From a virus (Duplodnaviria > Heunggongvirae > Uroviricota > Caudoviricetes), in the IMG/VR virus record IMGVR_UViG_3300032070_000730: a DNA stretch of 38,887 nt. The stretch is one strand, 5' to 3'. The number at the start of each line of letters is the position of its first letter. Positions within the stretch are counted from its first letter, which is position 1. The notes under the pieces were generated by a model that had not been told where the DNA came from, searched no databases, and saw only the letters and a program-made list of their open reading frames with translations. Below, piece by piece: positions 5,281 to 35,382 of this stretch. The position numbers were made by a program, and so were the translations under genes.

Positions 5281-6135
5281 TTAGATTTTCATATTCTTAC
5301 TTATGTGAAATGCTATGATAGATTTTCGTGGAATTGCTGGGTTTATTAGTTTTATGAATCGTTTTGTTTCTTTACTACCACCTAAAACCGATACATGAAA
5401 CATATCAACGCAATCTTTTCTTAAAGAAATTTTAAACCCTAACGAAACAATCAATTTCTTTATTATTGTTATCTTTTTTTCATTTTTTTGGGAGATAATT
5501 GCTCTATAATATCCCTCTTTTTTATATAAACAACCATCACCATCGAAAAATCCTTTTAAATAAAATATTTTACTGTTGTTATTTTTAAACCATGAAATGT
5601 TAAATTTTTTTATCCATTGAATCAAAAAAATTGAATTACATTCAATCAAATAACCAAACCCTTGTTTTATATTTATATCATTTTTTATACAAATGCGGGG
5701 GGTTAAACCTATATTTTTTAAACATTTTTTAAATTCATTAGCAAATTCTTTATCTTTTGTTAGTAATCCAATTTTATAATATTTTCTTTTTTTGAAATTT
5801 ATCCATCCATCACTATGAATAGCCCCCAAAACATAAAATAAATCCTTTGTTTTATCTAAATTAAAACTTACCTTCCATTTCATTTCACAGTATTTCGAGC
5901 AAAAATTATGTTTATTTCTTTTTTTGGCAGATGGCGGTCTATAAAAAAATTTTTTACAGAAATTACATTCAATACTTTCATTCCATCTCTTTGTTTTACT
6001 AATTTTTCTATCCCATTTGTTAAAACATTTGCTCGAACAGAAATTGTGTTTTAAACCCGATTGCTTTCGTTGTTTTATTGTAGATTTGCGTCTAACAAAA
6101 AGAATTTTACAGAAATCGCACCTTAAAATTGGCAT
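5281..6135 (-). CDS. free-standing LAGLIDADG homing endonuclease with N-terminal Cys motifs
   Basis: Two motifs, YVLGAIHSDG and YLKGFFDGDG; CxxC...FCS repeats; antisense insertion between two paralogous structural genes. Confidence 0.85.
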   Translation of the reverse strand: MPILRCDFCKILFVRRKSTIKQRKQSGLKHNFCSSKCFNKWDRKISKTKRWNESIECNFCKKFFYRPPSAKKRNKHNFCSKYCEMKWKVSFNLDKTKDLFYVLGAIHSDGWINFKKRKYYKIGLLTKDKEFANEFKKCLKNIGLTPRICIKNDINIKQGFGYLIECNSIFLIQWIKKFNISWFKNNNSKIFYLKGFFDGDGCLYKKEGYYRAIISQKNEKKITIIKKLIVSLGFKISLRKDCVDMFHVSVLGGSKETKRFIKLINPAIPRKSIIAFHISKNMKI

Positions 6136-7545: not shown

Positions 7546-8439
7546 GTGGTATGGAATAAAGGATTAAAAGGAGTTCAAATTGCGTGGAATAAAGGTAAGA
7601 AATGTGATTGGGTTACTAAAAGAAATTTAGAAGACAATCCTTCAAAAAAACCCAAAGTAAAAGAAAAAATATCAAAACATCATATTGATTATTATAAAAC
7701 ACATAAAAATCCGTTCGCTGGGAAAAAACATAAAAAATCAAGTAAAATAAAAATAGGTTTAGCAAATAAAGGAAGATTAGTTGGAGATAAAAACCCTTCA
7801 AAACGATTAGAAGTTAGAATTAAGATACAAGAAAAGAAAAAAGAATGGTGGAGAAAAATACGGAAAACTGAAAAATATGAACTATTCTGTGAAAAATTAA
7901 GAAAAAATAAAACTCGTGCAAAGAAAATTTCTAATGCTCTTTCAGGCGTTCCAAAATCAGAAGAAAGCACAGAAAAAAGAAGAAAGATTTTAAAAGATGG
8001 TTATGCAAATGGAGTTTATAAAATTTGGTGCGAGGGTCATACAAAAGAAAATGATAAACGCTTACAGATTAGTGGATTGAAATCAAGTAAAGCAAAAAAA
8101 GAATTTTTTAAAAAATACCCAGAAAAGCATCCTAATAGAATAATGGCAAAAAAGAAAGGAAAAGTATATATATCAAAACCACAGAGAAAATTGTTTGAAT
8201 TCATTAAGAAAAGATTTAATGATGCTGAATTGGAATTTACTATAAGAACAGAAGAAGGTGTAAGATTTGCTGACATTGGGATTCCAAGTTTGTTTATAGA
8301 TTTTGAATATAATGGTTATTATAAGCATTTCACTCCAGATGGCATAAAAAAAGATATGAAAAGAACAAGAGAAATTTCTAATTCTGGTTGGGGTGTTATA
8401 GTTTTTGAACCCGAAGATTTAGGTTTACGGAAAAACTAA
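7546..8439 (+). CDS. free-standing homing-type endonuclease (NUMOD3-like repeats + Vsr/DUF559-like nuclease)
   Basis: WNKG and NPS/NPF repeats; C-terminal RFADIGIP..IDFEYNGYYKH. Confidence 0.75.
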   Translation: MVWNKGLKGVQIAWNKGKKCDWVTKRNLEDNPSKKPKVKEKISKHHIDYYKTHKNPFAGKKHKKSSKIKIGLANKGRLVGDKNPSKRLEVRIKIQEKKKEWWRKIRKTEKYELFCEKLRKNKTRAKKISNALSGVPKSEESTEKRRKILKDGYANGVYKIWCEGHTKENDKRLQISGLKSSKAKKEFFKKYPEKHPNRIMAKKKGKVYISKPQRKLFEFIKKRFNDAELEFTIRTEEGVRFADIGIPSLFIDFEYNGYYKHFTPDGIKKDMKRTREISNSGWGVIVFEPEDLGLRKN

Positions 8440-8547: not shown

Positions 8548-8767
8548 ATGGGTGCTTTGAACGATACTTTAAGCGACATTGGGTCTGGTATTGGTTCGCT
8601 CTTCACAGGAAAGTCTTAACGGATTGACCGAAAGACCCTGAATGGGGGCACCATTAGCCATTTTTGTCATACTGTTGGCAGTCGGAACAGGAATTGGATA
8701 GTTTTTGAAAAGGAAACCCAAAATTATCCTGTCATCGATTGGAAGACGTGTAGGGGCAAAAATTTAA
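8548..8767 (+). CDS. 54-aa coat-like membrane protein, spliced join(8548-8611,8643-8699,8724-8767)
   Basis: Spliced product MGALNDTLSDIGSGIGSLFTGMGAPLAIFVILLAVGTGIGFILSSIGRRVGAKI is colinear with the C-termini of 27222 and 34513. RBS gaggtga precedes the start. The coat function is inference. Confidence 0.85.
8612..8642 (+). other. 31-nt BHB intron
   Basis: Central helix CAGG(8606-09)/CCTG(8637-40), bulges AA|A and AA|T, inner stem GTCTT/AAGAC; contains the in-frame TAA. Confidence 0.9.
8700..8723 (+). other. 24-nt BHB intron
   Basis: Central helix TTGG(8694-97)/CCAA(8718-21), bulges AT|A and AA|T, inner stem GTTT/AAAC, outer CAGGA/TCCTG; removal destroys the TAG. Confidence 0.9.
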
Positions 8768-8834
8768 AGACCTGACGTTGTGTTTAGAGTTTAATACAAA
8801 AATGAAAGAACAAAAACAGGTTAAGAAATTCATA

Positions 8835-8881
8835 GAGTGTTTAATACACTCGAAGGCTTTTCTTTTTTTTCTTTTTTCTTT
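8835..8881 (+). terminator. hairpin plus oligo-T terminator after the coat-like gene
   Basis: GAGTGT-ttaat-ACACTC then a long T-rich tract. Confidence 0.55.
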
Positions 8882-8900
8882 ATATAGTTTCTTCTACCGT

Positions 8901-8924
8901 TAAATTTTTAGAAATATTTAAATA
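8901..8924 (+). promoter_or_regulatory. shared promoter motif
   Basis: taaatttttagaaataTTTAAATA, 21 nt before ATG 8946. Confidence 0.6.
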
Positions 8925-8945
8925 TTAAAAACAAATAATTTTCTC

Positions 8946-9629
8946 ATGGGTTGTTCAAAAAGACAGTCAATAGAAAATTTAGGTATATGTGCCAAAAAAG
9001 AGTTTCATCCGCCAACGGAATTTAAAAGGGGGTGTGTGGCTTGGAATAAGGGCAAAAAGGTAGATTATAATAATTCTAAATGGCTTAAATCCTTTTATCA
9101 AACACATGAGCATTGCAATAAAAGGAAAACACTTGAAGAAATTTGTGGAATAGAAAAAGCCGAAGAAATAAAAGAGAAGTCTCGTTTAAAAAAAGGTAAA
9201 ACTTACGAAGAACTTTATGGTATAGAAAAAGCCAACGAAATAAAGGAAAACATAAAGAAGGGCATCAAAAAATACAGAAAAAATCATCCAGAATGGAAGA
9301 AAAAATGCCTAAAAAGAAGAATCCCATCAAGTTTAGAAATAAAAATGATTGGGTTAATTAAAAAATTTAACTTACCTTATATTTTTGTTGGAAATGGTAA
9401 ATTCTGGATAGAAAATTGCAATCCAGATTTCATAAATTGTAATGGTGAAAAAAATGCCATAGAAGTTTTTAATAGAGAACACAAAGAGAAATTTAGGGGT
9501 GGAATTGATGAATGGAAAGTAAAAAGGGAGAAAATATTTAGAAAATATGGATGGAAAATTTTATTTTTTGATGAAACAGATGTCAATGAGAATATTATTG
9601 AAAAAATAAATATATACGGGGTGAGTTAA
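8946..9629 (+). CDS. homing-type endonuclease (KGKTYEELYG repeats + PD-(D/E)xK-like nuclease)
   Basis: AWNKG; KTLEEICG/KTYEELYG repeats; NPDFIN...AIEVF; GWKILFF. Confidence 0.7.
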   Translation: MGCSKRQSIENLGICAKKEFHPPTEFKRGCVAWNKGKKVDYNNSKWLKSFYQTHEHCNKRKTLEEICGIEKAEEIKEKSRLKKGKTYEELYGIEKANEIKENIKKGIKKYRKNHPEWKKKCLKRRIPSSLEIKMIGLIKKFNLPYIFVGNGKFWIENCNPDFINCNGEKNAIEVFNREHKEKFRGGIDEWKVKREKIFRKYGWKILFFDETDVNENIIEKINIYGVS

Positions 9630-10394
9630 ATTCCAGTCACAGTCGCAACAGAGCCAATTAAGCAACCGAGTATCATCGCCCAAATCGTAGTCCTTCTCGT
9701 TAAGTATTGGCTTATTGTTGTTGGGGTCTTTGCTCTCGCTGTCATCCTCGCTTTCGTCATAATCCTCTGGAAGCGGATGAAAAAAAGAGTAGACCCGTTC
9801 CAAGATATTTATCAAAAGACGAAGGCATTGTGCAAATTTCACAAAAATTCTATCATAAAACATGTCTACATGCTTTCTGACAATAAAATCCAGTATGTGG
9901 GAAAATATCTTGGGGAATGCATCACGCAGGACGGTTATGAAAATATAATGTTCTGGCGTGGGAAGAAATGGTATCTGTTTTGGATTCCTGCTCGTCTCGA
10001 TTTCTTGGATTTGGTAAAAGAGATTTTCATACTCAAATGCAATGTCAATAAAGATTACACCATGAGGGAATATGACCCAGAGACGAAGAAAACAAAAGAG
10101 ACAAAATATGATATAGCGAATGATTTGATTAGTGTTGATGGCGACAAGGTTCTTGTAAAAGGACTTGGGGTTGAAAGGGTAAAAAATTTCCTGTATCCAG
10201 TATTAAGGAATGATAAGGGGAACATCACTGACAAAAAAATGGAGATTTTCGACAGGCAGAGAACTCCAGCACTGATTGATACCATGTTCAGCCAAGTAGA
10301 AGACTTCGCAAACATAAGCAGGGAACTCATAAACATAAATCCTTCGGTCAGATTTAGCGTCAAGACGGGTGAGATACCGCCAAAGAGAGATTAA
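9630..10394 (+). CDS. membrane-anchored protein, probable ATT start
   Basis: Frame is open 49 codons upstream of ATG 9777 and encodes a TM helix; ATT abuts the upstream TAA behind RBS ggggtga. Confidence 0.6.
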   Translation: MPVTVATEPIKQPSIIAQIVVLLVKYWLIVVGVFALAVILAFVIILWKRMKKRVDPFQDIYQKTKALCKFHKNSIIKHVYMLSDNKIQYVGKYLGECITQDGYENIMFWRGKKWYLFWIPARLDFLDLVKEIFILKCNVNKDYTMREYDPETKKTKETKYDIANDLISVDGDKVLVKGLGVERVKNFLYPVLRNDKGNITDKKMEIFDRQRTPALIDTMFSQVEDFANISRELININPSVRFSVKTGEIPPKRD

Positions 10395-10450
10395 TTAATG
10401 TTTATTATTTCAATATATAATTTAATTAAAAAAATAAAGGGGGGATAAAT

Positions 10451-10552
10451 ATCGCACCAGAATGGGTGGGGCTTGCAACGATTGTCGTAATAATCGTAGC
10501 ATTGTTTTATTGGATGTATTATTTAAAACAAGGTCAGCAACAGAAGGTTTAG
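10451..10552 (+). CDS. 33-aa TM peptide, probable ATC (or ATA 10445) start
   Basis: (M)APEWVGLATIVVIIVALFYWMYYLKQGQQQKV after a GGGGGG RBS; no ATG/GTG/TTG upstream of the TM segment apart from an internal GTG. Confidence 0.45.
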   Translation: MAPEWVGLATIVVIIVALFYWMYYLKQGQQQKV

Positions 10553-10561
10553 GTCATAAGT

Positions 10562-10810
10562 ATGGAATCGAAGGAGAGCATACTTTTTGTAATTTTGATA
10601 CTGGTGATTGCGAACCTTGTTGTAGATTATTTTATAATAGACCAATTTGACAAAGGGATGATAGACCTGAAGAAGTTCATCTTCAATCATTCTCAAAGTT
10701 CATGCACATGCAATTGTTGCCAGAACGCAACTAATTCTACGAAGCCAATTCTTGTTTTTAACATTACAAACGAATCTACGCCGAGCATCGGCATACTTGG
10801 AGATGGTTAA
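10562..10810 (+). CDS. small membrane protein with CxCxCC
   Basis: N-terminal TM and CTCNCC. Confidence 0.6.
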   Translation: MESKESILFVILILVIANLVVDYFIIDQFDKGMIDLKKFIFNHSQSSCTCNCCQNATNSTKPILVFNITNESTPSIGILGDG

Positions 10811-11041
10811 ATGGGAAAGATTAAAATAGAATTTTCAAAAGAAGAACTGCTTGCACTGGACAAATTCTTCAGTTATTTTCCAAAGACAGAACTTGAACAA
10901 CGTTGCCCGACTGTATTGAAAGACAGACATTTCATCATGTTCTTGGGGAAGATGTATAAGGAAATCAATAAACTGAAAGGGGTGACAAAGGAAGAAGAAG
11001 TAGTTCTAAAAAGAAAAGCAAAAAGAATGTTGGGGTTGTAA
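10811..11041 (+). CDS. hypothetical protein
   Basis: Coupled ORF (TAA-ATG). Confidence 0.6.
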   Translation: MGKIKIEFSKEELLALDKFFSYFPKTELEQRCPTVLKDRHFIMFLGKMYKEINKLKGVTKEEEVVLKRKAKRMLGL

Positions 11042-11298
11042 TGGCGATATTTTTATTGGCGACAAAGGTTGGAGTGTGGGGGAAAAAACTCGGTAAAGAG
11101 CCAGTTAGCATAGAGATTACAGAAATGGAAATGGTCTCGCTTCTGAAGGCTCTCGGTCACTGGAATAAACCACTTTACAGAAAAATAAGAATCGGTCTGA
11201 TTGAGGAAGCAAAGAAAGATGGGTTTGAATTTGAGATGGCTGATGCACAGTTCATGGAAGTAACATGTCCGAAATGCGGAGAAAAGGTGAAAGTATGA
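11041..11298 (+). CDS. hypothetical protein with C-terminal CPKC
   Basis: TAATG overlap; VTCPKCG. Confidence 0.6.
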   Translation: MAIFLLATKVGVWGKKLGKEPVSIEITEMEMVSLLKALGHWNKPLYRKIRIGLIEEAKKDGFEFEMADAQFMEVTCPKCGEKVKV

Positions 11299-11711
11299 GT
11301 GCAGTGACTTGGCTGATTATGCATTGGGAATTAGTCCTCACGATACTTCTTGTGATTTTCATAGGGATTCCTTTCATGGTCGTCATGATAATTCCATCGA
11401 TAATCTATATTGCTTCGAGAAGAAAATGGATTCCGACGCTTGAATGGATGATACAATATTTTAAGGTCGATATAAACCAGCCACCATATTCAGAGTGGAT
11501 GGACAAGCATCCGCTTATTTTTGTCTGCCTGACTTCAGTGGAACTTTATATTTCGTATTATTTGATTCATCTGATTGATGGAATAAAATGGGGAGTGAAA
11601 AAAACAGTCGTCGGGACTTATAAAATATTGAAAATTTATGTCAAGCATCAATGGGGTTTGTATGAAAAATGGAATAAAGAGATAGAAAAAGAAGAAAAAA
11701 AGGCGAAATAA
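11295..11711 (+). CDS. membrane protein
   Basis: ATGA overlap with the upstream gene; hydrophobic N-terminal half. Confidence 0.6.
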   Translation: MSAVTWLIMHWELVLTILLVIFIGIPFMVVMIIPSIIYIASRRKWIPTLEWMIQYFKVDINQPPYSEWMDKHPLIFVCLTSVELYISYYLIHLIDGIKWGVKKTVVGTYKILKIYVKHQWGLYEKWNKEIEKEEKKAK

Positions 11712-12545
11712 ATGAAAAAATGTATCGATTGTGGTAATTTTATTCATGGTAAAAAATATTGTCTAAAATGTTATCTTAAAAATCATAATCCAGTTAAAAA
11801 AGGGGTTAAAATAACTTGGGGAGATAAAATTTCAGATAGTATAATGAAAAATCCAGTAGATATTGAAAGAAGAAGAATTCAAGGAAATAAAATGAGATTT
11901 ATAAATACGGGTAAAAAAAGAACAAAAAAAGCACGAAAAAAATATAGTCAAAATCTAACAAAAAATTGGCAAGACCCAGAATTTAGAGATAAAAGAGTAA
12001 AACAAATTAAAATAGGTAATTTGAAAAAGGATATGACCAAAGTAAAAGAAAGAATGTTAACAAATAATCCTATGAATAATCAGAAAATAAGAAAAAAACA
12101 TTTGAAAATAATGAGAAGCGAAAGGATGAGAAAAATAAAAAGGGAAAATGCACAAGAACGATGGAATGATGAAAATCAACGAGAAAAGTGGATAAAATCA
12201 ATATTGAAAATCTTATTTAAAAGACCAACAAAACTTGAAAAAGGTTTTATCAATTTTTTTGATACATATAATGTTCCATTTAATTATTGTGGGAATGGTT
12301 CTTTGATAATAGGTGGAAAATGTCCTGATTTTGTTGAAAGTAATGGAAAGAAAATATGTTTAGAAGTTGGAAATAAAAGAGAAAAATCTGTGCCAAGAAA
12401 AAATAGAATATATAAAAATTGGCAGGAATATGAACAACAAAGAATTTCTCACTTTGCTGGTTTTGGGTGGAAATGTTTAGTTTTATGGGAAAATGAATTG
12501 GAAAATGAAGTATTATTAAATAATAAAATCAAGAGGTGGTTATAA
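11712..12545 (+). CDS. homing-type endonuclease (CxxC...CxxC, NPM repeats, PD-(D/E)xK-like nuclease)
   Basis: KCPDFV...ICLEVG; GWKCLVLWENE. Confidence 0.7.
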   Translation: MKKCIDCGNFIHGKKYCLKCYLKNHNPVKKGVKITWGDKISDSIMKNPVDIERRRIQGNKMRFINTGKKRTKKARKKYSQNLTKNWQDPEFRDKRVKQIKIGNLKKDMTKVKERMLTNNPMNNQKIRKKHLKIMRSERMRKIKRENAQERWNDENQREKWIKSILKILFKRPTKLEKGFINFFDTYNVPFNYCGNGSLIIGGKCPDFVESNGKKICLEVGNKREKSVPRKNRIYKNWQEYEQQRISHFAGFGWKCLVLWENELENEVLLNNKIKRWL

Positions 12546-12775
12546 TTTTACTCAATTTTCATCTGTGGCTTTATTTAACCATGTCTTTGATATTCTGGGC
12601 TAAAGTTATAATCACTTTCAGACAGCACAGGCAAGACCCGAATGAAAGAAGATGGAATCTGATACTCAACAGTATTTTTGCTCTTTTATTTTCTTTTGCT
12701 TTTATTGATTTAGTTACAACGATACCCCAAATAATTAAAGTCCTGATAATGATTAGAGATATTGCGGGTGGTTAG
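12536..12775 (+). CDS. two-TM membrane protein
   Basis: Two hydrophobic segments. Confidence 0.6.
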   Translation: MVIILLNFHLWLYLTMSLIFWAKVIITFRQHRQDPNERRWNLILNSIFALLFSFAFIDLVTTIPQIIKVLIMIRDIAGG

Positions 12776-13228
12776 TTGCGTTACATCGAGACTTTGTTAC
12801 TTCAGTTTAGGAGTGAAACTGTGCGTAGCAATTATGGGGGAGTGTTGAATCTGGCGATGGATATAGTCAAAGGAGAAGATAGACCAAATCAGGTTCTTCT
12901 CCGTAAACTTGTATGGATAAAAAACAACACGACTGAAAAATTGAGGACTAACTACTATATTGTGATAAACACATTGGCAAGAAAAATACATCATAATCTT
13001 GATGCACCGATTGAGATTAAGGTCGGAAGAGGAAGAACTGTAGAATATTCTCTCGGAGAACTGATAGCAGAGATTGAAGAGGCACACATGAAAATAAACG
13101 ATGTCGTCAGGGAAGTCGCAAAGAAATATTCGCTTGATATTCCGTTCAGAAAATCTGGCGGTGAGTGGGAAATCCCAGATATAGAAAAGTTAATGAAAGA
13201 GAAAACGAATGAGAAATTAACTGGGTGA
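12776..13228 (+). CDS. hypothetical protein upstream of the ATPase
   Basis: TTG abuts the upstream TAG; 150-aa ORF. Confidence 0.65.
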   Translation: MRYIETLLLQFRSETVRSNYGGVLNLAMDIVKGEDRPNQVLLRKLVWIKNNTTEKLRTNYYIVINTLARKIHHNLDAPIEIKVGRGRTVEYSLGELIAEIEEAHMKINDVVREVAKKYSLDIPFRKSGGEWEIPDIEKLMKEKTNEKLTG

Positions 13229-13255
13229 TTTTAAAATGTATGAGGTGATATATGA

Positions 13256-14092
13256 TTGGTAGATAGTTTTGCATTGAAAGCATTTCCAGTATTGACACAA
13301 ATTTCAGCAGGCGACCTTGAATGGCATGTAGATTAATAATCTTAATTGGTTATTAAGCATAAATCCCGTTCAGGAAGACCAGATAGTAGATAAAATGCAA
13401 CAATCAGAGGCATTCGCAAAATGCATAAGCCTTAATAAAACTCCATTGTTCTTCGAGTTCTTGGATTATAAAACAAGATACAGGGAGAATGTTGGTGTAG
13501 AAGTAAAGGGCGGAAATAAGAATATCTTACCGCATCCCGAACAGGTAAGTCAACTGGCGTAACAGCATTATCAAAATATACATCACATTTGAGTTGCGTT
13601 CCATTTACTTTATGGCATGTATGTGCGAATGAAATAGAATATCTTGAGAAATTGAAGACTCCATCTTTGCCATACGGTTCTGTCTTCCAGATAGATGAGC
13701 AGACCGAAACACATACTGGTGCAGGGTCATATTCGGAAATGCAAGTATTGGAAGATATGTCTAATATCATCGCTAAAAATCAAATTCATACTTTTTGGTG
13801 CATGGAAGAGAATACAGTTATCAAAACATTAAATGGGTTAATTAAAATTAAAGATTTACCAAATCCAGAACCTTTTAGAGTATGGGGCTTTAATTTTGAT
13901 AAAAAAAGACCAGAACTGGATTTAGCAGTAAAAACATATAGCGGGGAAAAAGAGATTTTTAATATAGTAACAGAAACAGGCGAAGAAGTTAAAGCAACAA
14001 GAGAACATAGGTTTTTTATACTTAATGGCAGTAAAATACAAGAAAAGAAAGTAGATGAATTAAGAGTTGGGGATAAATTAGTGATGATATGA
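13256..14092 (+). CDS. P-loop ATPase N-half + N-intein, spliced join(13256-13331,13363-13515,13536-14092)
   Basis: TTG after gaggtga. The spliced product has VEVKGGTRTGKST (Walker A) and VFQIDE (Walker B), then a Hint domain from Cys at 13799. A packaging role is inference. Confidence 0.85.
13332..13362 (+). other. 31-nt BHB/BHL intron
   Basis: Central helix ATGT/GCAT (one G-U), bulges AG|A and AA|A, 9-bp inner stem TTAATAATC/GGTTATTAA (one G-U); 31 nt is exactly the frame shift needed (HVD-PVQ). Confidence 0.75.
13516..13535 (+). other. 20-nt BHB intron inside Walker A
   Basis: GG/CC outer pairs, central helix GCGG/CCGC, bulges AA|A and AT|C, inner stem TAAGA/TCTTA; removal gives GGC GGA ACC CGA ACA GGT AAG TCA. 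Confidence 0.93.
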
Positions 14093-14970
14093 AAAAAATA
14101 TTAAAAAGACCAAAACAATCTGAATTTATGCATAATACCCGTGCTAATCCAGATTCTCCTTATAACAAAAAATCATGTAGAGATAAGATAAGTAAAAATA
14201 CAACAAAACAATGGAAAAATGCATCTATAAGAGAAAAAATGATAGATGGTATTAAAAAAAGTTGGACTAAAGAAAGATGTAATAAAATGAAAGGCGATAA
14301 TAACCCCGCCAAATCATTACAGGCAAGAAATAAAATAAGCCAAAAATTAAGTGGAAAGAAAAAACCAAAATGGTTGATTGAAAATCTTGCTGAAATACAT
14401 AGAGGAAGACCAGTAAAAACAGCAATAAGAGAAAAAATAAGGAAAACACAATTAAAAAAAGCAGATGAATACAGAAAAAGAAAAATATTATTTCATCAAT
14501 TACACCCAGAAAAACATCCAAATATGTTATTAAGAAGAAATCATAAAACGAAAATTGAAGAAATTTTAATAAAAGAATTAAACAATCTTGGTTGTGTAGA
14601 AAAACAACAAATTAAAACATGTAAAAAATTAAAAGATTTTGTATTTAATTTTTACATAAAAACATATAATGGGTTTAGATTTCCAGATATTAACTTTCCT
14701 TTATTAAAAATAATAATAGAATGTGATGGAAATTATTGGCATAAAAATAAAAAATACGAAAGAAACAGGGATTTAGAATTTAAAAATTTAGGATATAAAA
14801 TATTGCATTTTTCTGGTTATGATATTAAAAATAATTTAAATGAGGTAAAAGATGTTGTGAGAACTGAAATAATAAAAAAAATAGAAAGAATTGGTGAAGG
14901 AAAAACATACGATATAACGACACAAAAAAATCATAATTTTATACTTGGAAATGGCATTTTAGCCCATAAT
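13799..14970 (+). mobile_element. split intein: IntN 13799-14092, endonuclease-IntC 14089-14970
   Basis: Starts CMEENT, has block B ATREHRF and ends YDITT..NHNFILGNGILAHN|C; halves are in different frames with an ATGA overlap and RBS-like gtgatga. Confidence 0.85.
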
Positions 14971-15579
14971 TGCCACCCGCATGAATTTGTGGGTCGTAAC
15001 TCCCAAACCATCTAAAGATGGGGGAAATTGGGTCTTGAGTGCTACGGAAAGAACTTTGAGTATAAATTAATCAGATGCATCCTTTATAATATTTCAGTGT
15101 CAACTCTATCAAAAGTTCCAATGGGCATCGTCGTAATTCCTATCGGTTGGCTTTTCAAGTGCGGTCTTTTTGCTGAACCGACGATTTACAATGGAAGAAA
15201 AACTATAATCACCTGTATAAAAGATGTCTGTCCGAGATACGGAAAGTGTCAGGAATTTATGGCACAGTATGAATACAAGAAAGACAATCAGATTGAATTG
15301 ATAAGGACAAGACAATTTGGTGAAAGAGAGTTTAATAGATTAGAAACAGCAGAAAAAATCGCAAAAGACAAGAACTTTCAGATGTGCAGGACAAAAGATG
15401 AAAGGATGTCAATTGCAAGACTTTTAGTTCAATTCGGGACTCCAGAAAAACTGATAGTAGAAAGCGTTGCTCTTGCAAGGGCTATCGATAAAGGAAGGGT
15501 CGATATTGATTCATTGAGGAAACTTGGCGGGAAAAGAACGACAGAAGGAAATGCTGAAGAAGAAAAGGCAGTCACCTAA
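14089..15579 (+). CDS. NUMOD3/DUF559-like endonuclease + C-intein + ATPase C-half, spliced join(14089-15006,15028-15579)
   Basis: RFPDINF..IIIECDGNYWH nuclease; the C-extein CHPHEFVGRNSQ joins LGLECYGK after intron removal. Confidence 0.8.
15007..15027 (+). other. 21-nt BHB intron
   Basis: Central helix TCCC/GGGA, bulges AA|A and AA|T, inner stem CCATC/GATGG; in frame and contains the TAA at 15013-15; outer helix weak. Confidence 0.85.
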
Positions 15580-20981: not shown

Positions 20982-21191
20982 ATGCATACAATTAGTGGAA
21001 GTCTTTCAGAAGTCGGCTCTGGAATGGGCGGTCTATTTGGTGGAATGGCTACAGTTCCGATTTCAACTGCGATAATGAAACATGGGGCAGAACCAGTGAA
21101 AGGTGCAATGAAGAGAGCAGGAAAAGAGATTGCGGGGAAGAAAAAAACAAAGAAAAAAGTCGCTAAAAAAGGAAAGAAGAAAAAAAGATGA
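20982..21191 (+). CDS. array protein MHT, 69 aa, with coat-like helix and Lys-rich tail
   Basis: SLSEVGSGMGGLFGGM resembles TLSDIGSGIGSLFTGM of 8548. Confidence 0.7.
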   Translation: MHTISGSLSEVGSGMGGLFGGMATVPISTAIMKHGAEPVKGAMKRAGKEIAGKKKTKKKVAKKGKKKKR

Positions 21192-27221: not shown

Positions 27222-27524
27222 ATGTATAAAAAACTTTTTTTAGTCTATGCTTCATTTTTCTTCTTATTCATGCCAGCAGTTCTGGCTGATGACGTGTTTG
27301 CTCATATCAGGATACAATTCGAGACTGTATTGGGCGACATAGGTGCGGGTATTGGCTCTTTATTTACTGGCATGGGGGCTGGGCTTACTATATTCATAAT
27401 ACTTCTTGCTGTCGCTGGAATGATTGCTTTTATAATATCAGCAATAGCAAAGAGGGCTGGATATGGAGAAGACGGTTATCAATCTCCGCCACCAGAAGGC
27501 GACGGTTATCAGAGACCCGTTTAA
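27222..27524 (+). CDS. intron-less coat-like paralogue with signal peptide and (E/G)DGYQ-repeat tail
   Basis: LGDIGAGIGSLFTGMGAGLTIFIILLAV..MIAFIISAIAKR. Confidence 0.75.
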   Translation: MYKKLFLVYASFFFLFMPAVLADDVFAHIRIQFETVLGDIGAGIGSLFTGMGAGLTIFIILLAVAGMIAFIISAIAKRAGYGEDGYQSPPPEGDGYQRPV

Positions 27525-34490: not shown

Positions 34491-34512
34491 ATTGGCTTTC
34501 TATTATATATGT

Positions 34513-35382
34513 ATGAGAAAAATCCTTTTGCTTTTGGTCATGTTTCTATTTGTTCTTACTTTTCAGCAGGTCAAATCATCATCTTTAATTAATTGGTGGA
34601 AATTTGATGAATGTTCTGGAGATTTAGTCGCTGATAGTGTCGGAGTAAGTGATGGAACAAGGTATAATTTTGATAATGGCTGGGTTTCTGGTGTAAGTGG
34701 TTGTGCTTTGGAGTTTGATGGAACAGATGATTATGTTAGTATGAATAATGATTCTTCGTTGAATTTTGGTTTAAATAATTTTTCAGTTTCATTTTGGATT
34801 AGAATTGATAATGAAGATTTTTATGGAGATGTTGTTCACAAATCAGGCGGTGAGTTTGGTGATATTGGATGGGGATTCTATACAACATCATCAGATGTAA
34901 TGAGTTTTTTTGCTCAAGATACGGATGAAATAGGGTATATAGACCTTGAATCGTCAGTAGATATACAAGGAACTGGATGGCATTATATAACAGCAACAAG
35001 AGAAGGAAACACATTTAAACTTTATATTGATGGTAATTTGGATATTTTTGATGACACGCAGACAGTTGGTGATTTAGATGTAGTAGATAATTTAACAATA
35101 GGAACACCTTCACTGCTTCGTGCATATTTTAATGGGTCAATAGATGAAGTCAAATTTTATGACTATTATTTATCTGGTAATGAAATCATAGCAGAATATA
35201 ACAGTTATTTTCCACATTATCACCCTTTAAATGATACTTTATCTGATGTTGGTCAAGGTGTTGGAAATCTTTTGTTGAATATGTCACCACCACTCACAAT
35301 CTTAATTATAATCCTTGCTGTTGTAAGTATGGTCGGGTTCATAATATCGTCAGTCGGAAGAAGAATTGGAGAGAAGATATAA
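34513..35382 (+). CDS. LamG/concanavalin-A-like domain fused to a coat-like C-terminal module
   Basis: WWKFDE...ALEFDGTDDYV...FSVSFWI...WHYIT...LYIDG...FNGSIDEVKFY, then LNDTLSDVGQGVGNLL...GFIISSVGRRIGEKI. Confidence 0.85.
   Translation: MRKILLLLVMFLFVLTFQQVKSSSLINWWKFDECSGDLVADSVGVSDGTRYNFDNGWVSGVSGCALEFDGTDDYVSMNNDSSLNFGLNNFSVSFWIRIDNEDFYGDVVHKSGGEFGDIGWGFYTTSSDVMSFFAQDTDEIGYIDLESSVDIQGTGWHYITATREGNTFKLYIDGNLDIFDDTQTVGDLDVVDNLTIGTPSLLRAYFNGSIDEVKFYDYYLSGNEIIAEYNSYFPHYHPLNDTLSDVGQGVGNLLLNMSPPLTILIIILAVVSMVGFIISSVGRRIGEKI

What the first reader, a model, noticed from the sequence alone, without database searches (positions are those of the whole stretch)
8548..15579. System of BHB micro-introns in mRNAs of a putative archaeal virus
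Seen: five 20-31 nt inserts in two genes. Each folds into a 4-bp helix flanked by 3-nt bulges on opposite strands plus an inner hairpin. Cutting after the second nt of each bulge gives exactly the length needed to restore the frame in 5/5 cases (31, 24, 31, 20, 21 nt). All five begin with A; the 5' bulges are A-N-A and the 3' bulges A-W-N. Known: this is the substrate geometry and cut rule of the archaeal tRNA-splicing endonuclease EndA, with ligation by RtcB; mRNA examples I know are essentially the crenarchaeal cbf5 intron. Inference: the element makes its coat-like and ATPase genes dependent on host tRNA splicing. This could act as a late-gene or host-range gate, or as insertions that break CRISPR or homing-endonuclease targets without changing the protein. 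Standard gene callers miss or fragment these genes.
Basis: partly seen in the sequence, partly recalled or inferred. Interest (0 to 1): 0.97.

Follow-up and report, generated by a model that had tools for sequence, protein, structure and literature searches.

The report
tRNA-type micro-introns riddling archaeal virus genes
Two conserved genes of an uncultured archaeal virus-like element are broken by tiny (20-31 base) inserts shaped like the introns archaea cut out of tRNAs. Removing them exactly where that enzyme would cut rebuilds the proteins that intron-free sister strains encode, so this element very probably needs host tRNA-splicing enzymes to express them.

Summary
Five inserts (8612-8642, 8700-8723, 13332-13362, 13516-13535, 15007-15027) all fold the same way: a 4-bp helix, a 3-nt A-rich 5' bulge, an inner hairpin, and a 3' cut site 2 nt past the helix.

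Cutting after the second bulge nucleotide gives a 54-aa membrane ("coat-like") protein. It is gapless and 94% identical to an uninterrupted ORF in a relative. The same rule gives ATPase junctions WHVD|PVQ, GGTRTGKST and NSQ|LGLE, which intron-free DNA alleles encode in sister strains from other sediment metagenomes.

Across 13 related contigs I catalogued about 39 such introns of 14-37 nt. About 35 meet strict geometry at boundaries defined by homology alone, against 0.05% of shifted controls. All have one orientation. Lengths show no bias to multiples of three, and nearly all carry stops. Flanking exons are under strong purifying selection (dN/dS about 0.07).

The motif is mostly the relaxed HBh' form, because the outer helix is weak or absent.

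Archaeal affiliation is supported by Hjc and histone genes next to the same block in a 92%-identical strain. RNA-level splicing remains inferred, since no RNA data were available. The proposed gate or immunity functions are untested.

This scan has noted similar introns before, including elsewhere on this genome. I found no publication describing them in viral protein genes.

The parts
8548..8611 (+). coat-like gene, exon 1 (MGALNDTLSDIGSGIGSLFTG + first base of the Met codon)
   Evidence: A GAGGTGA ribosome-binding site lies upstream. The spliced product matches L004:1296-1457.
8612..8642 (+). micro-intron 1, 31 nt, phase 1, contains TAA
   Evidence: Helix CAGG/CCTG, bulges AAA and AAT, inner stem 5 bp. 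The homology-only boundary agrees.
8643..8699 (+). coat-like gene, exon 2
8700..8723 (+). micro-intron 2, 24 nt, phase 1, contains TAG
   Evidence: Helix TTGG/CCAA, bulges ATA and AAT, inner stem 6 bp. The homology-only solution is unique.
8724..8767 (+). coat-like gene, exon 3 with stop. The spliced protein is 54 aa.
   Evidence: Gapless and 94% identical to the uninterrupted L004 ORF. Identical over the aligned part to strain L020's product.
13253..13331 (+). ATPase exon 1 (TTG start, GAGGTGAT ribosome-binding site 6 nt upstream)
   Evidence: The N-extension ...LEWHVD is conserved and contiguous with the ATPase in L002 and L005.
13332..13362 (+). micro-intron 3, 31 nt, phase 1
   Evidence: Helix ATGT/GCAT, inner stem 9 bp. 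An intron-free DNA allele in run X3 reads WHVDPVQ.
13363..13515 (+). ATPase exon 2
13516..13535 (+). micro-intron 4, 20 nt, phase 1, inside the Walker A codons
   Evidence: Helix GCGG/CCGC, inner stem 5 bp, outer helix 2 bp. The unique homology-only solution gives GGTRTGKST, as encoded without interruption in strain L020. The insert is absent from X3/X4 DNA.
13536..13798 (+). ATPase exon 3 (Walker A to ...IHTFW)
13799..14092 (+). N-terminal half of an intein (Hint domain), ending at TGA
   Evidence: Pfam Intein_splicing, E 8e-12.
14089..14970 (+). ORF starting at an ATGA overlap: DUF559/Vsr-like endonuclease fused to the intein C-terminal half (ends ...HN before Cys)
   Evidence: Pfam DUF559 and Intein_splicing; NCBIfam intein_Cterm. 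No BHB lies at the frame change, and L001 and L002 have the same arrangement.
14971..15006 (+). ATPase exon 4 (CHPHEFVGRNSQ)
15007..15027 (+). micro-intron 5, 21 nt, phase 0, contains TAA
   Evidence: Helix TCCC/GGGA, inner stem 5 bp. An X3 DNA allele lacks both the intein and this intron and reads FWCHPHEFVGRNSQLGLE.
15028..15579 (+). ATPase exon 5 (C-terminal half, usually called as a separate 183-aa ORF)
   Evidence: dN/dS 0.07-0.08 against L002, L003 and L004. Aligns to residues 141-303 of the uninterrupted homologue P0008.
7546..8439 (+). free-standing endonuclease-like ORF upstream of the coat gene
   Evidence: Its C-terminal third resembles the DUF559 nuclease inside the intein.
8946..9629 (+). 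free-standing DUF559/Vsr-like endonuclease ORF downstream of the coat gene
   Evidence: Precisely absent from X3/X4 and L020. Homologue in L004.
11712..12545 (+). free-standing endonuclease-like ORF
   Evidence: Precisely absent from X3/X4 and L020. Related to the ORF at 8946-9629.

Best explanation
The five inserts are archaeal endonuclease-type (bulge-helix-bulge) introns of the relaxed HBh' kind, sitting in the mRNAs of a virus-like element of an uncultured sediment archaeon.

Proposed mechanism:
1. After transcription, the last four exon bases lying two bases upstream of each insert pair with four bases near the insert's 3' end. This leaves a 3-nt A-rich bulge next to an intron-internal hairpin.
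2. The host tRNA-splicing endonuclease cuts after the second bulge base on each side.
3. An RtcB-type ligase joins the exons.

The result is an intact 54-aa membrane protein. It also yields an ATPase message that still needs protein splicing of a split intein.

Evolutionary behaviour: the introns turn over quickly and are probably mobile. Sister strains carry them at different codons or lack them precisely. They crowd into the most conserved stretches, which also hold inteins.

What is shown: the geometry, the exact boundaries, the DNA presence/absence polymorphism, selection on the exons, and the archaeal context.

What is inferred: RNA-level excision, the enzymes involved, and any function beyond being tolerated selfish inserts.
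For: - Uniform architecture in all five inserts, recovered independently by minimum-energy folding.
- A homology-only search for the best stop-free deletion gives the BHB-rule boundaries at 27 junctions in the first set and 17 more later. 31 of 35 curated introns pass strict geometry, against 2 of 3888 shifted controls. Four further introns also fit.
- The spliced coat protein is gapless against the uninterrupted ORF L004:1296-1457.
- Strain L020 (86-97% nt identity) encodes the same protein through two other BHB introns at other codons, and has an uninterrupted GGTRTGKST.
- Intron-free DNA alleles in independent metagenomes read exactly the predicted junctions. The intron-bearing alleles are reproduced in other runs.
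- Intron lengths are spread over all residues mod 3 (14, 12 and 9 introns). 34 of 35 carry stop codons. 33 of 35 start with A.
- Four of the five window introns split a codon.
- Compensatory stem changes occur between homologous introns, for example TAAGA/TCTTA against TAAGT/ACTTA, and AATTTG/CAAATT against AATTCA/TGAATT.
- Exons downstream of the stops have dN/dS of 0.03-0.08.
- Hjc and an archaeal histone-fold gene lie beside the same block in L020.
- Cleavage between the 2nd and 3rd bulge bases, and processing of relaxed motifs by broad-specificity EndA (including DPANN types), are established (PMC2738675, PMC5829648).
Against: - There is no RNA evidence. No RNA run holds this DNA.
- In three of the five introns no outer helix closes the 3' bulge, so cleavage there needs a broad-specificity enzyme of an unidentified host.
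- The relaxed motif by itself is frequent by chance in this A+T-rich DNA.
- One composite 56-59-nt insert in relatives (L003, L006, L010) cannot be resolved by the rule.
- Two curated introns have only 3 of 4 helix pairs.
- The host and its EndA and RtcB genes were not seen.
Confidence: 0.8

Rival explanations
1. The inserts are excised from the RNA, but by an enzyme other than host EndA/RtcB. One candidate is a nuclease and ligase encoded by the element itself, which recognise the same helix-bulge-hairpin.
For: The element is rich in nucleases of unknown specificity. The strictly single orientation and A-rich bulges could reflect a dedicated enzyme. Only part of the 104-kb contig was visible to me.
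Against: The geometry and cut positions are those of EndA substrates (PMC2738675, PMC5829648). No EndA- or RtcB-like Pfam hit appears in the gene tables of the related contigs. The visible nucleases are DNA homing-endonuclease families.
Confidence: 0.08
2. Ribosomes hop over the inserts (translational bypassing, as in phage T4 gene 60 or the yeast mitochondrial byps), so no RNA cutting is needed.
For: The inserts are short, hold a stop codon near their start and contain a hairpin. These are features of known bypass elements (my own knowledge). Short nucleotide repeats at both borders give 1-5 equivalent cut positions.
Against: Four of the five window inserts split a codon, and the junction codon (ATG, TTT, GAT, ACC) is built from both sides. 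Hopping from a take-off codon to a matching landing codon cannot do this. For 13516-13535 only one deletion fits. The conserved 4-bp exon-intron helix with fixed 3-nt and 2-nt spacing is unexplained by hopping.
Confidence: 0.03
3. The inserts are never removed. The genes are decaying pseudogenes or are expressed as separate fragments, and the hairpins are small DNA-level mobile elements or repair scars.
For: Gene callers see only fragments. Inserts come and go at the DNA level between strains. The 183-aa C-terminal ORF has its own possible TTG start.
Against: Exons on both sides of every insert are under strong purifying selection with saturated synonymous change. Fragments such as a 7-codon or 12-codon exon cannot function alone. 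Walker A is split in mid-motif. The same two genes are interrupted in at least 13 contigs from many samples, yet always restorable by one rule.
Confidence: 0.04
4. Sequencing or assembly artefacts.
For: None found.
Against: Identical intron-bearing alleles occur in independent runs and studies. Homologous introns occur in JGI, ENA and Logan assemblies.
Confidence: 0.01

Closest known systems
BHB intron in the cbf5 pre-mRNA of Desulfurococcales and Sulfolobales (Watanabe 2002; Yokobori 2009, PMC2738675)
   Same: A short intron in a protein-coding message with a relaxed bulge-helix-bulge. The predicted cuts lie between the 2nd and 3rd bulge bases. It is gained and lost among relatives and sits at a conserved catalytic codon.
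   Different: cbf5 has one intron in one cellular gene of Crenarchaeota. Here there are two or three per gene in a virus-like element, about 39 introns at about 24 codon sites in two genes, sizes down to 14 nt, and different sites in strains that are about 90% identical. For cbf5, splicing was shown by cDNA and in vitro cleavage; here it was not.
Non-canonical (HBh'/BHL) tRNA introns of Crenarchaeota, Nanoarchaeota and ARMAN, cut by broad-specificity EndA (PMC5829648, PMC4090602)
   Same: The same relaxed motif and the same orientation as the canonical tRNA intron: the exon strand of the central helix lies 5' and the intron supplies the complement. There are multiple introns per gene, small sizes and evidence of transposition.
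   Different: The substrate is mRNA with no mature tRNA body. The reading frame must be restored exactly.
12-bp insertion/deletion elements in rudivirus SIRV1 variants, discussed as putative introns (cited in PMC2738675)
   Same: Very short inserts that come and go inside ORFs of an archaeal virus.
   Different: Those are multiples of three, carry no demonstrated BHB, and may stay in the protein. The present inserts have any length mod 3, carry stops and fit the BHB rule.
Collaborative homing of an endonuclease-free group I intron with a free-standing homing endonuclease in cyanophage psbA (Zeng, Bonocora and Shub 2009; from my own knowledge)
   Same: Introns in conserved phage genes flanked by free-standing endonuclease genes. 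An intron could protect the carrier allele from cutting.
   Different: The intron type is different (self-splicing ribozyme against protein-spliced micro-intron). No link between a given endonuclease and a given intron was found here, and L004 is a counter-example.

Membership tests
Archaeal endonuclease-type (BHB) introns | Central 4-bp helix flanked by two 3-nt bulges on opposite strands (hBHBh'), or an accepted relaxed form (HBh', BHL) | tested here: met
   All five have the 4-bp helix, the 5' bulge and the inner helix. The outer helix is 0-2 bp, which is the HBh' form. Some relatives have the full form, for example L020 16177-16199 with a 7-bp outer helix.
Archaeal endonuclease-type (BHB) introns | Cutting between the 2nd and 3rd bulge nucleotides gives the exact functional junction | tested here: met
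   The junctions equal the homology-only optimum at 5 of 5 window sites and in about 35 of 39 introns overall. They match intron-free DNA alleles.
Archaeal endonuclease-type (BHB) introns | Structure, not sequence, is conserved; compensatory changes occur in the helices | tested here: met
   Homologous introns at the Walker A, NSQ|LGL and WCH|PHE sites keep their stems through double changes. The helix complement differs with each exon site. The sample per site is small (2-3 sequences).
Archaeal endonuclease-type (BHB) introns | Cleavage by EndA and ligation by RtcB, with the intron released (often circular) | not testable with these tools
   No RNA run was available. This needs an in vitro assay.
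Archaeal endonuclease-type (BHB) introns | Host is an archaeon (or eukaryote) with a splicing endonuclease | tested here: inconclusive
   Hjc (E 3e-8) and archaeal histone-fold genes lie in strain L020 next to the same block. The host itself and its EndA were not identified, and there was no hit in species genomes.
Translational bypass elements (T4 gene 60 type) | Matching take-off and landing codons at codon boundaries | tested here: not met
   Four of five inserts split a codon, and the junction codons are chimeric.
Self-splicing group I / group II introns | Ribozyme core of hundreds of nucleotides | tested here: not met
   The inserts are 14-37 nt. There is no Rfam family in the window.
Inteins (for the 13799-14970 element only) | Hint N- and C-terminal splicing blocks, ending HN followed by Cys | tested here: met
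   Pfam Intein_splicing on both halves and NCBIfam intein_Cterm. The two halves lie in different frames joined by an ATGA overlap, so it is a split arrangement.

The most novel reading that the evidence does not exclude
The micro-introns are a population of mobile RNA-level elements that move between conserved sites of viral genes. Each carries a 4-nt guide complementary to the exon just upstream of its insertion point. They are kept because they break the DNA recognition sites of the many homing endonucleases and inteins, or of CRISPR spacers, that target the same hyper-conserved codons. On this reading, host tRNA splicing is co-opted as an immunity layer in a conflict among selfish elements inside a virus genome.
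Probability: 0.3. Interest if true: 0.93.

Novelty: new variant of a known kind. Interest (0 to 1): 0.88.

Why it matters
In the literature I could search, protein-spliced (BHB) introns in protein-coding messages are documented only for cbf5 of some Crenarchaeota.

Here a virus-like element of an uncultured archaeon carries them in bulk. There are two or three per gene, down to 14 nt, and they differ between near-identical strains.

If spliced as predicted, this has several consequences:
- Expression of a structural gene and an ATPase gene depends on host EndA and RtcB. That would be a new host-dependency factor for archaeal viruses.
- One ATPase needs both RNA splicing and protein splicing.
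- Standard gene callers systematically mis-annotate such genomes. Many members of this ATPase family in the databases are fragments.
- The precise gain and loss seen between strains offers a natural system for studying how endonuclease-type introns move. This has been an open question since tRNA intron transposition was proposed.

Tried and rejected
- A strict hBHBh' scan requiring an outer helix of at least 2 bp found only one of the five introns. The requirement was dropped once it was clear that the motif is the relaxed form.
- Counting the motif in the window against shuffles is not discriminating (33 against about 14), so I did not use it as evidence.
- The mirror orientation (helix between the intron 5' end and the 3' exon) was never found at a junction.
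- A BHB at the frame change inside the intein (14089) was rejected. Only a weak A/U-rich candidate exists, and nothing is conserved in L001 or L002.
- The upstream ORF MYEVIYDW as ATPase start was rejected, because it overlaps the ribosome-binding site of the TTG start at 13253.
- Pfam, PHROGs, NCBIfam and PDB sequence searches leave the ATPase unnamed. Its fold is a generic RecA-like P-loop with weak likeness to archaeal-virus ATPases.
- There were no relatives in IMG/VR or in species genomes.
- Protection from the neighbouring endonuclease 8946-9629 is not supported by L004.
- The composite 56-59-nt insert in L003, L006 and L010 could not be resolved.
- An all-against-all search for frame-breaking inserts in other genes of these contigs found essentially none with BHB.
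- I could not search the related contigs for EndA or RtcB genes.

Full report
**What is in the window.** Bases 6.2-25.7 kb form a block of small + strand genes with strong GC skew. Almost none of them matches Pfam, PHROGs or NCBIfam. No tRNA gene or Rfam family is present.

Two genes are visibly broken:
- A small gene starting at 8548 stops after 23 codons, continues in another frame, and then meets an in-frame TAG.
- A P-loop ATPase gene (13253-15579) changes frame twice before an intein. It changes frame again inside the intein and has an in-frame TAA at 15013.

**Check of the observation.** I wrote a scanner for the two possible bulge-helix-bulge orientations.
- The four exon bases at -6..-3 pair with the four intron bases at -6..-3 counted from the intron's 3' end.
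- The three bases around the 5' cut are bulged.
- An inner hairpin of 5-9 bp follows directly.
- The 3' cut lies two bases past the helix.

RNAfold gives this same architecture as the minimum-energy fold for all five. The outer exon-exon helix is only 0-2 bp. The motif is therefore the relaxed HBh' (bulge-helix-loop-like) form rather than the canonical one.

The relaxed motif is not rare by chance in this A+T-rich DNA: there are 33 hits on the + strand against about 14 in shuffles. The real test is whether it falls exactly where homology says the insert begins and ends.

**Homology-defined boundaries.** The C-terminal ATPase ORF found relatives in metagenomes. I fetched their contigs.

One relative, L005 (protein P0008, 319 aa), has an uninterrupted ATPase. 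Another, L004, has an uninterrupted 54-codon coat-like ORF.

For each junction I searched all deletions of 6-95 nt for the stop-free product that best aligns to the uninterrupted reference, using no structural information. The optimum, or one of its nucleotide-equivalent ties, was the BHB-rule intron at all five window sites and at almost every site in the relatives.

The resulting junctions are:
- The spliced coat protein is gapless and 94% identical to L004:1296-1457.
- The ATPase junctions read WHVD|PVQ (contiguous in L002 and L005), GGTRTGKST and NSQ|LGLE.
- For the Walker A intron the solution is unique.

**Catalogue.** Across the window and 12 related contigs I curated 35 distinct introns of 14-37 nt. 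Four more were added later.
- 31 of 35 have 4 of 4 helix pairs and an inner stem of at least 4 bp at the homology-compatible position. Only 2 of 3888 controls pass when the same intervals are shifted by 7-60 nt.
- 33 of 35 begin with A.
- The first base of the 5' bulge is A in 29 of 35. The first base of the 3' bulge is A in 32 of 35.
- 34 of 35 contain a stop codon.
- Lengths fall evenly over the three residues mod 3 (14, 12 and 9 introns), as expected if they are never translated.
- All are in one orientation, the orientation of the canonical tRNA intron.
- Homologous introns at one site keep their stems through compensatory changes (Walker A, NSQ|LGL and WCH|PHE sites).

**DNA-level polymorphism.** Contigs of independent sediment metagenomes were laid on the region.
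- Runs X5 and X2 reproduce the window's intron-bearing alleles without a difference, so the inserts are not assembly errors.
- Runs X3 and X4 hold sister strains with intron-free alleles. One joint replaces intron 3 and reads WHVDPVQ. About 20 nt are missing at intron 4. One contig lacks both the intein and intron 5 and reads FWCHPHEFVGRNSQLGLE.

Contig L020 is 86-97% identical to the window over 12 kb. It has an uninterrupted GGTRTGKST. It encodes the same coat-like protein through two other BHB introns, at codons 7/8 and 30/31 instead of 21/22 and 40/41. One of these has a 7-bp outer helix, which is the full canonical motif.

**Selection.** The exon downstream of the TAA-bearing intron has dN/dS of 0.07-0.08 against three relatives, with saturated synonymous change. 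The spliced coat gene has dN 0.07 and dS 2.0 against L004. The pieces are therefore parts of working genes.

**Archaeal context.** Directly left of the region shared with the window, L020 carries two archaeal marker genes:
- A Holliday junction resolvase Hjc (Pfam E 3e-8, above the curated cut-off).
- An archaeal histone-fold protein (27.6 bits against a cut-off of 21.4).

Earlier notes of this scan describe Orc1/Cdc6, MCM and PCNA further upstream on the same 104-kb contig. I could not read that part.

The habitat is sediment. The host is unknown. No EndA or RtcB domain appears in the gene tables of the related contigs, which is consistent with dependence on host enzymes.

**Mechanism.** The literature establishes the following:
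- EndA cuts between the second and third bulge bases (PMC2738675).
- Relaxed motifs lacking one closed bulge are processed by broad-specificity EndA types carrying an inserted loop. These are common in TACK and DPANN lineages (PMC5829648).
- RtcB joins the halves (named from my own knowledge).

From these facts I infer that host EndA and RtcB excise the inserts from the viral mRNAs. The step is not shown, because no RNA run holds this DNA.

**Rivals.**
- Translational bypassing fails because four of the five inserts split a codon and the junction codon is chimeric.
- Pseudogenes and artefacts are excluded by selection and by independent assemblies.
- An element-encoded RNA nuclease cannot be excluded.

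**Function.** The intron sites crowd into ATPase codons about 124-166 and the Walker A loop. These are the places where relatives carry inteins. The two genes are also flanked by free-standing DUF559/Vsr-like endonuclease genes that are precisely absent from sister strains.

This pattern fits selfish spread into conserved sites, and possibly protection of those sites from DNA endonucleases. However, L004 keeps a homologue of the 8946-9629 endonuclease next to an intron-free coat gene. No specific partnership is therefore shown. The gate and CRISPR-evasion ideas are untested.

**Novelty.** My literature searches found only three related items: the cbf5 case, non-canonical tRNA introns, and 12-bp indels in a rudivirus discussed as putative introns. 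None describes BHB introns in viral protein genes.

This scan has reported similar micro-introns before. They were noted in DPANN and other archaeal genes, in two other viral contigs, and once elsewhere on this genome.

**Other points.**
- The ATPase belongs to an unnamed family with 152 cluster representatives at E up to 0.001, many of them fragments.
- Its model (pLDDT 87) is a RecA-like P-loop fold with only weak likeness to archaeal-virus ATPases.
- The intein is split at an ATGA overlap, with the endonuclease fused to the C-terminal half. L001 and L002 share this arrangement.

Noticed in passing
window 13799-14970: The intein in the ATPase is split into two ORFs at an ATGA overlap (14089). 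The N-half ends at a stop, and a DUF559/Vsr-like endonuclease is fused in frame to the C-half. L001 and L002 have the same layout with different endonuclease bodies.
   Followed up: partly
window 7546-8439, 8946-9629, 11712-12545: Three free-standing endonuclease-like ORFs sit between conserved genes. The latter two are cleanly absent from sister strains (X3, X4, L020), as expected of mobile homing-endonuclease genes.
   Followed up: partly
window 27330-27461, 35227-35379, 20982-21047: The 54-aa coat-like sequence recurs as the C-terminal membrane-anchor module of larger proteins, including a Laminin_G_3 lectin-fold protein (34492-35382). It may therefore be a shared anchoring module rather than a coat protein proper.
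   Followed up: partly
L003 6785-6843; L006; L010 1128-1183: A composite 56-59-nt insert with two hairpin units lies at the WHVD|P codon. The first unit fits the BHB rule, but the whole cannot be removed by it. It may be an intron within or next to an intron, or a decayed N-extension.
   Followed up: partly
L017 2607-2620: This is the smallest intron seen, at 14 nt. It has a 4-bp helix and 3-bp outer helix but almost no inner stem.
   Followed up: no
window 5281-6135 (- strand): A LAGLIDADG endonuclease with an N-terminal zf-FCS zinc finger, on the opposite strand at the left edge of the + strand gene block.
   Followed up: no
L020 5955-6284 (-), 619-840 (+): Hjc resolvase and an archaeal histone-fold gene lie in the strain that is 92% identical to the window's left end. 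They are useful markers of archaeal affiliation.
   Followed up: yes
ATPase family (P0008 and relatives): An unnamed P-loop ATPase family with 152 cluster representatives at E up to 0.001. Many database members are 70-220-aa fragments or 600-800-aa intein-bearing forms. This suggests interruption by introns and inteins is common across the family.
   Followed up: partly
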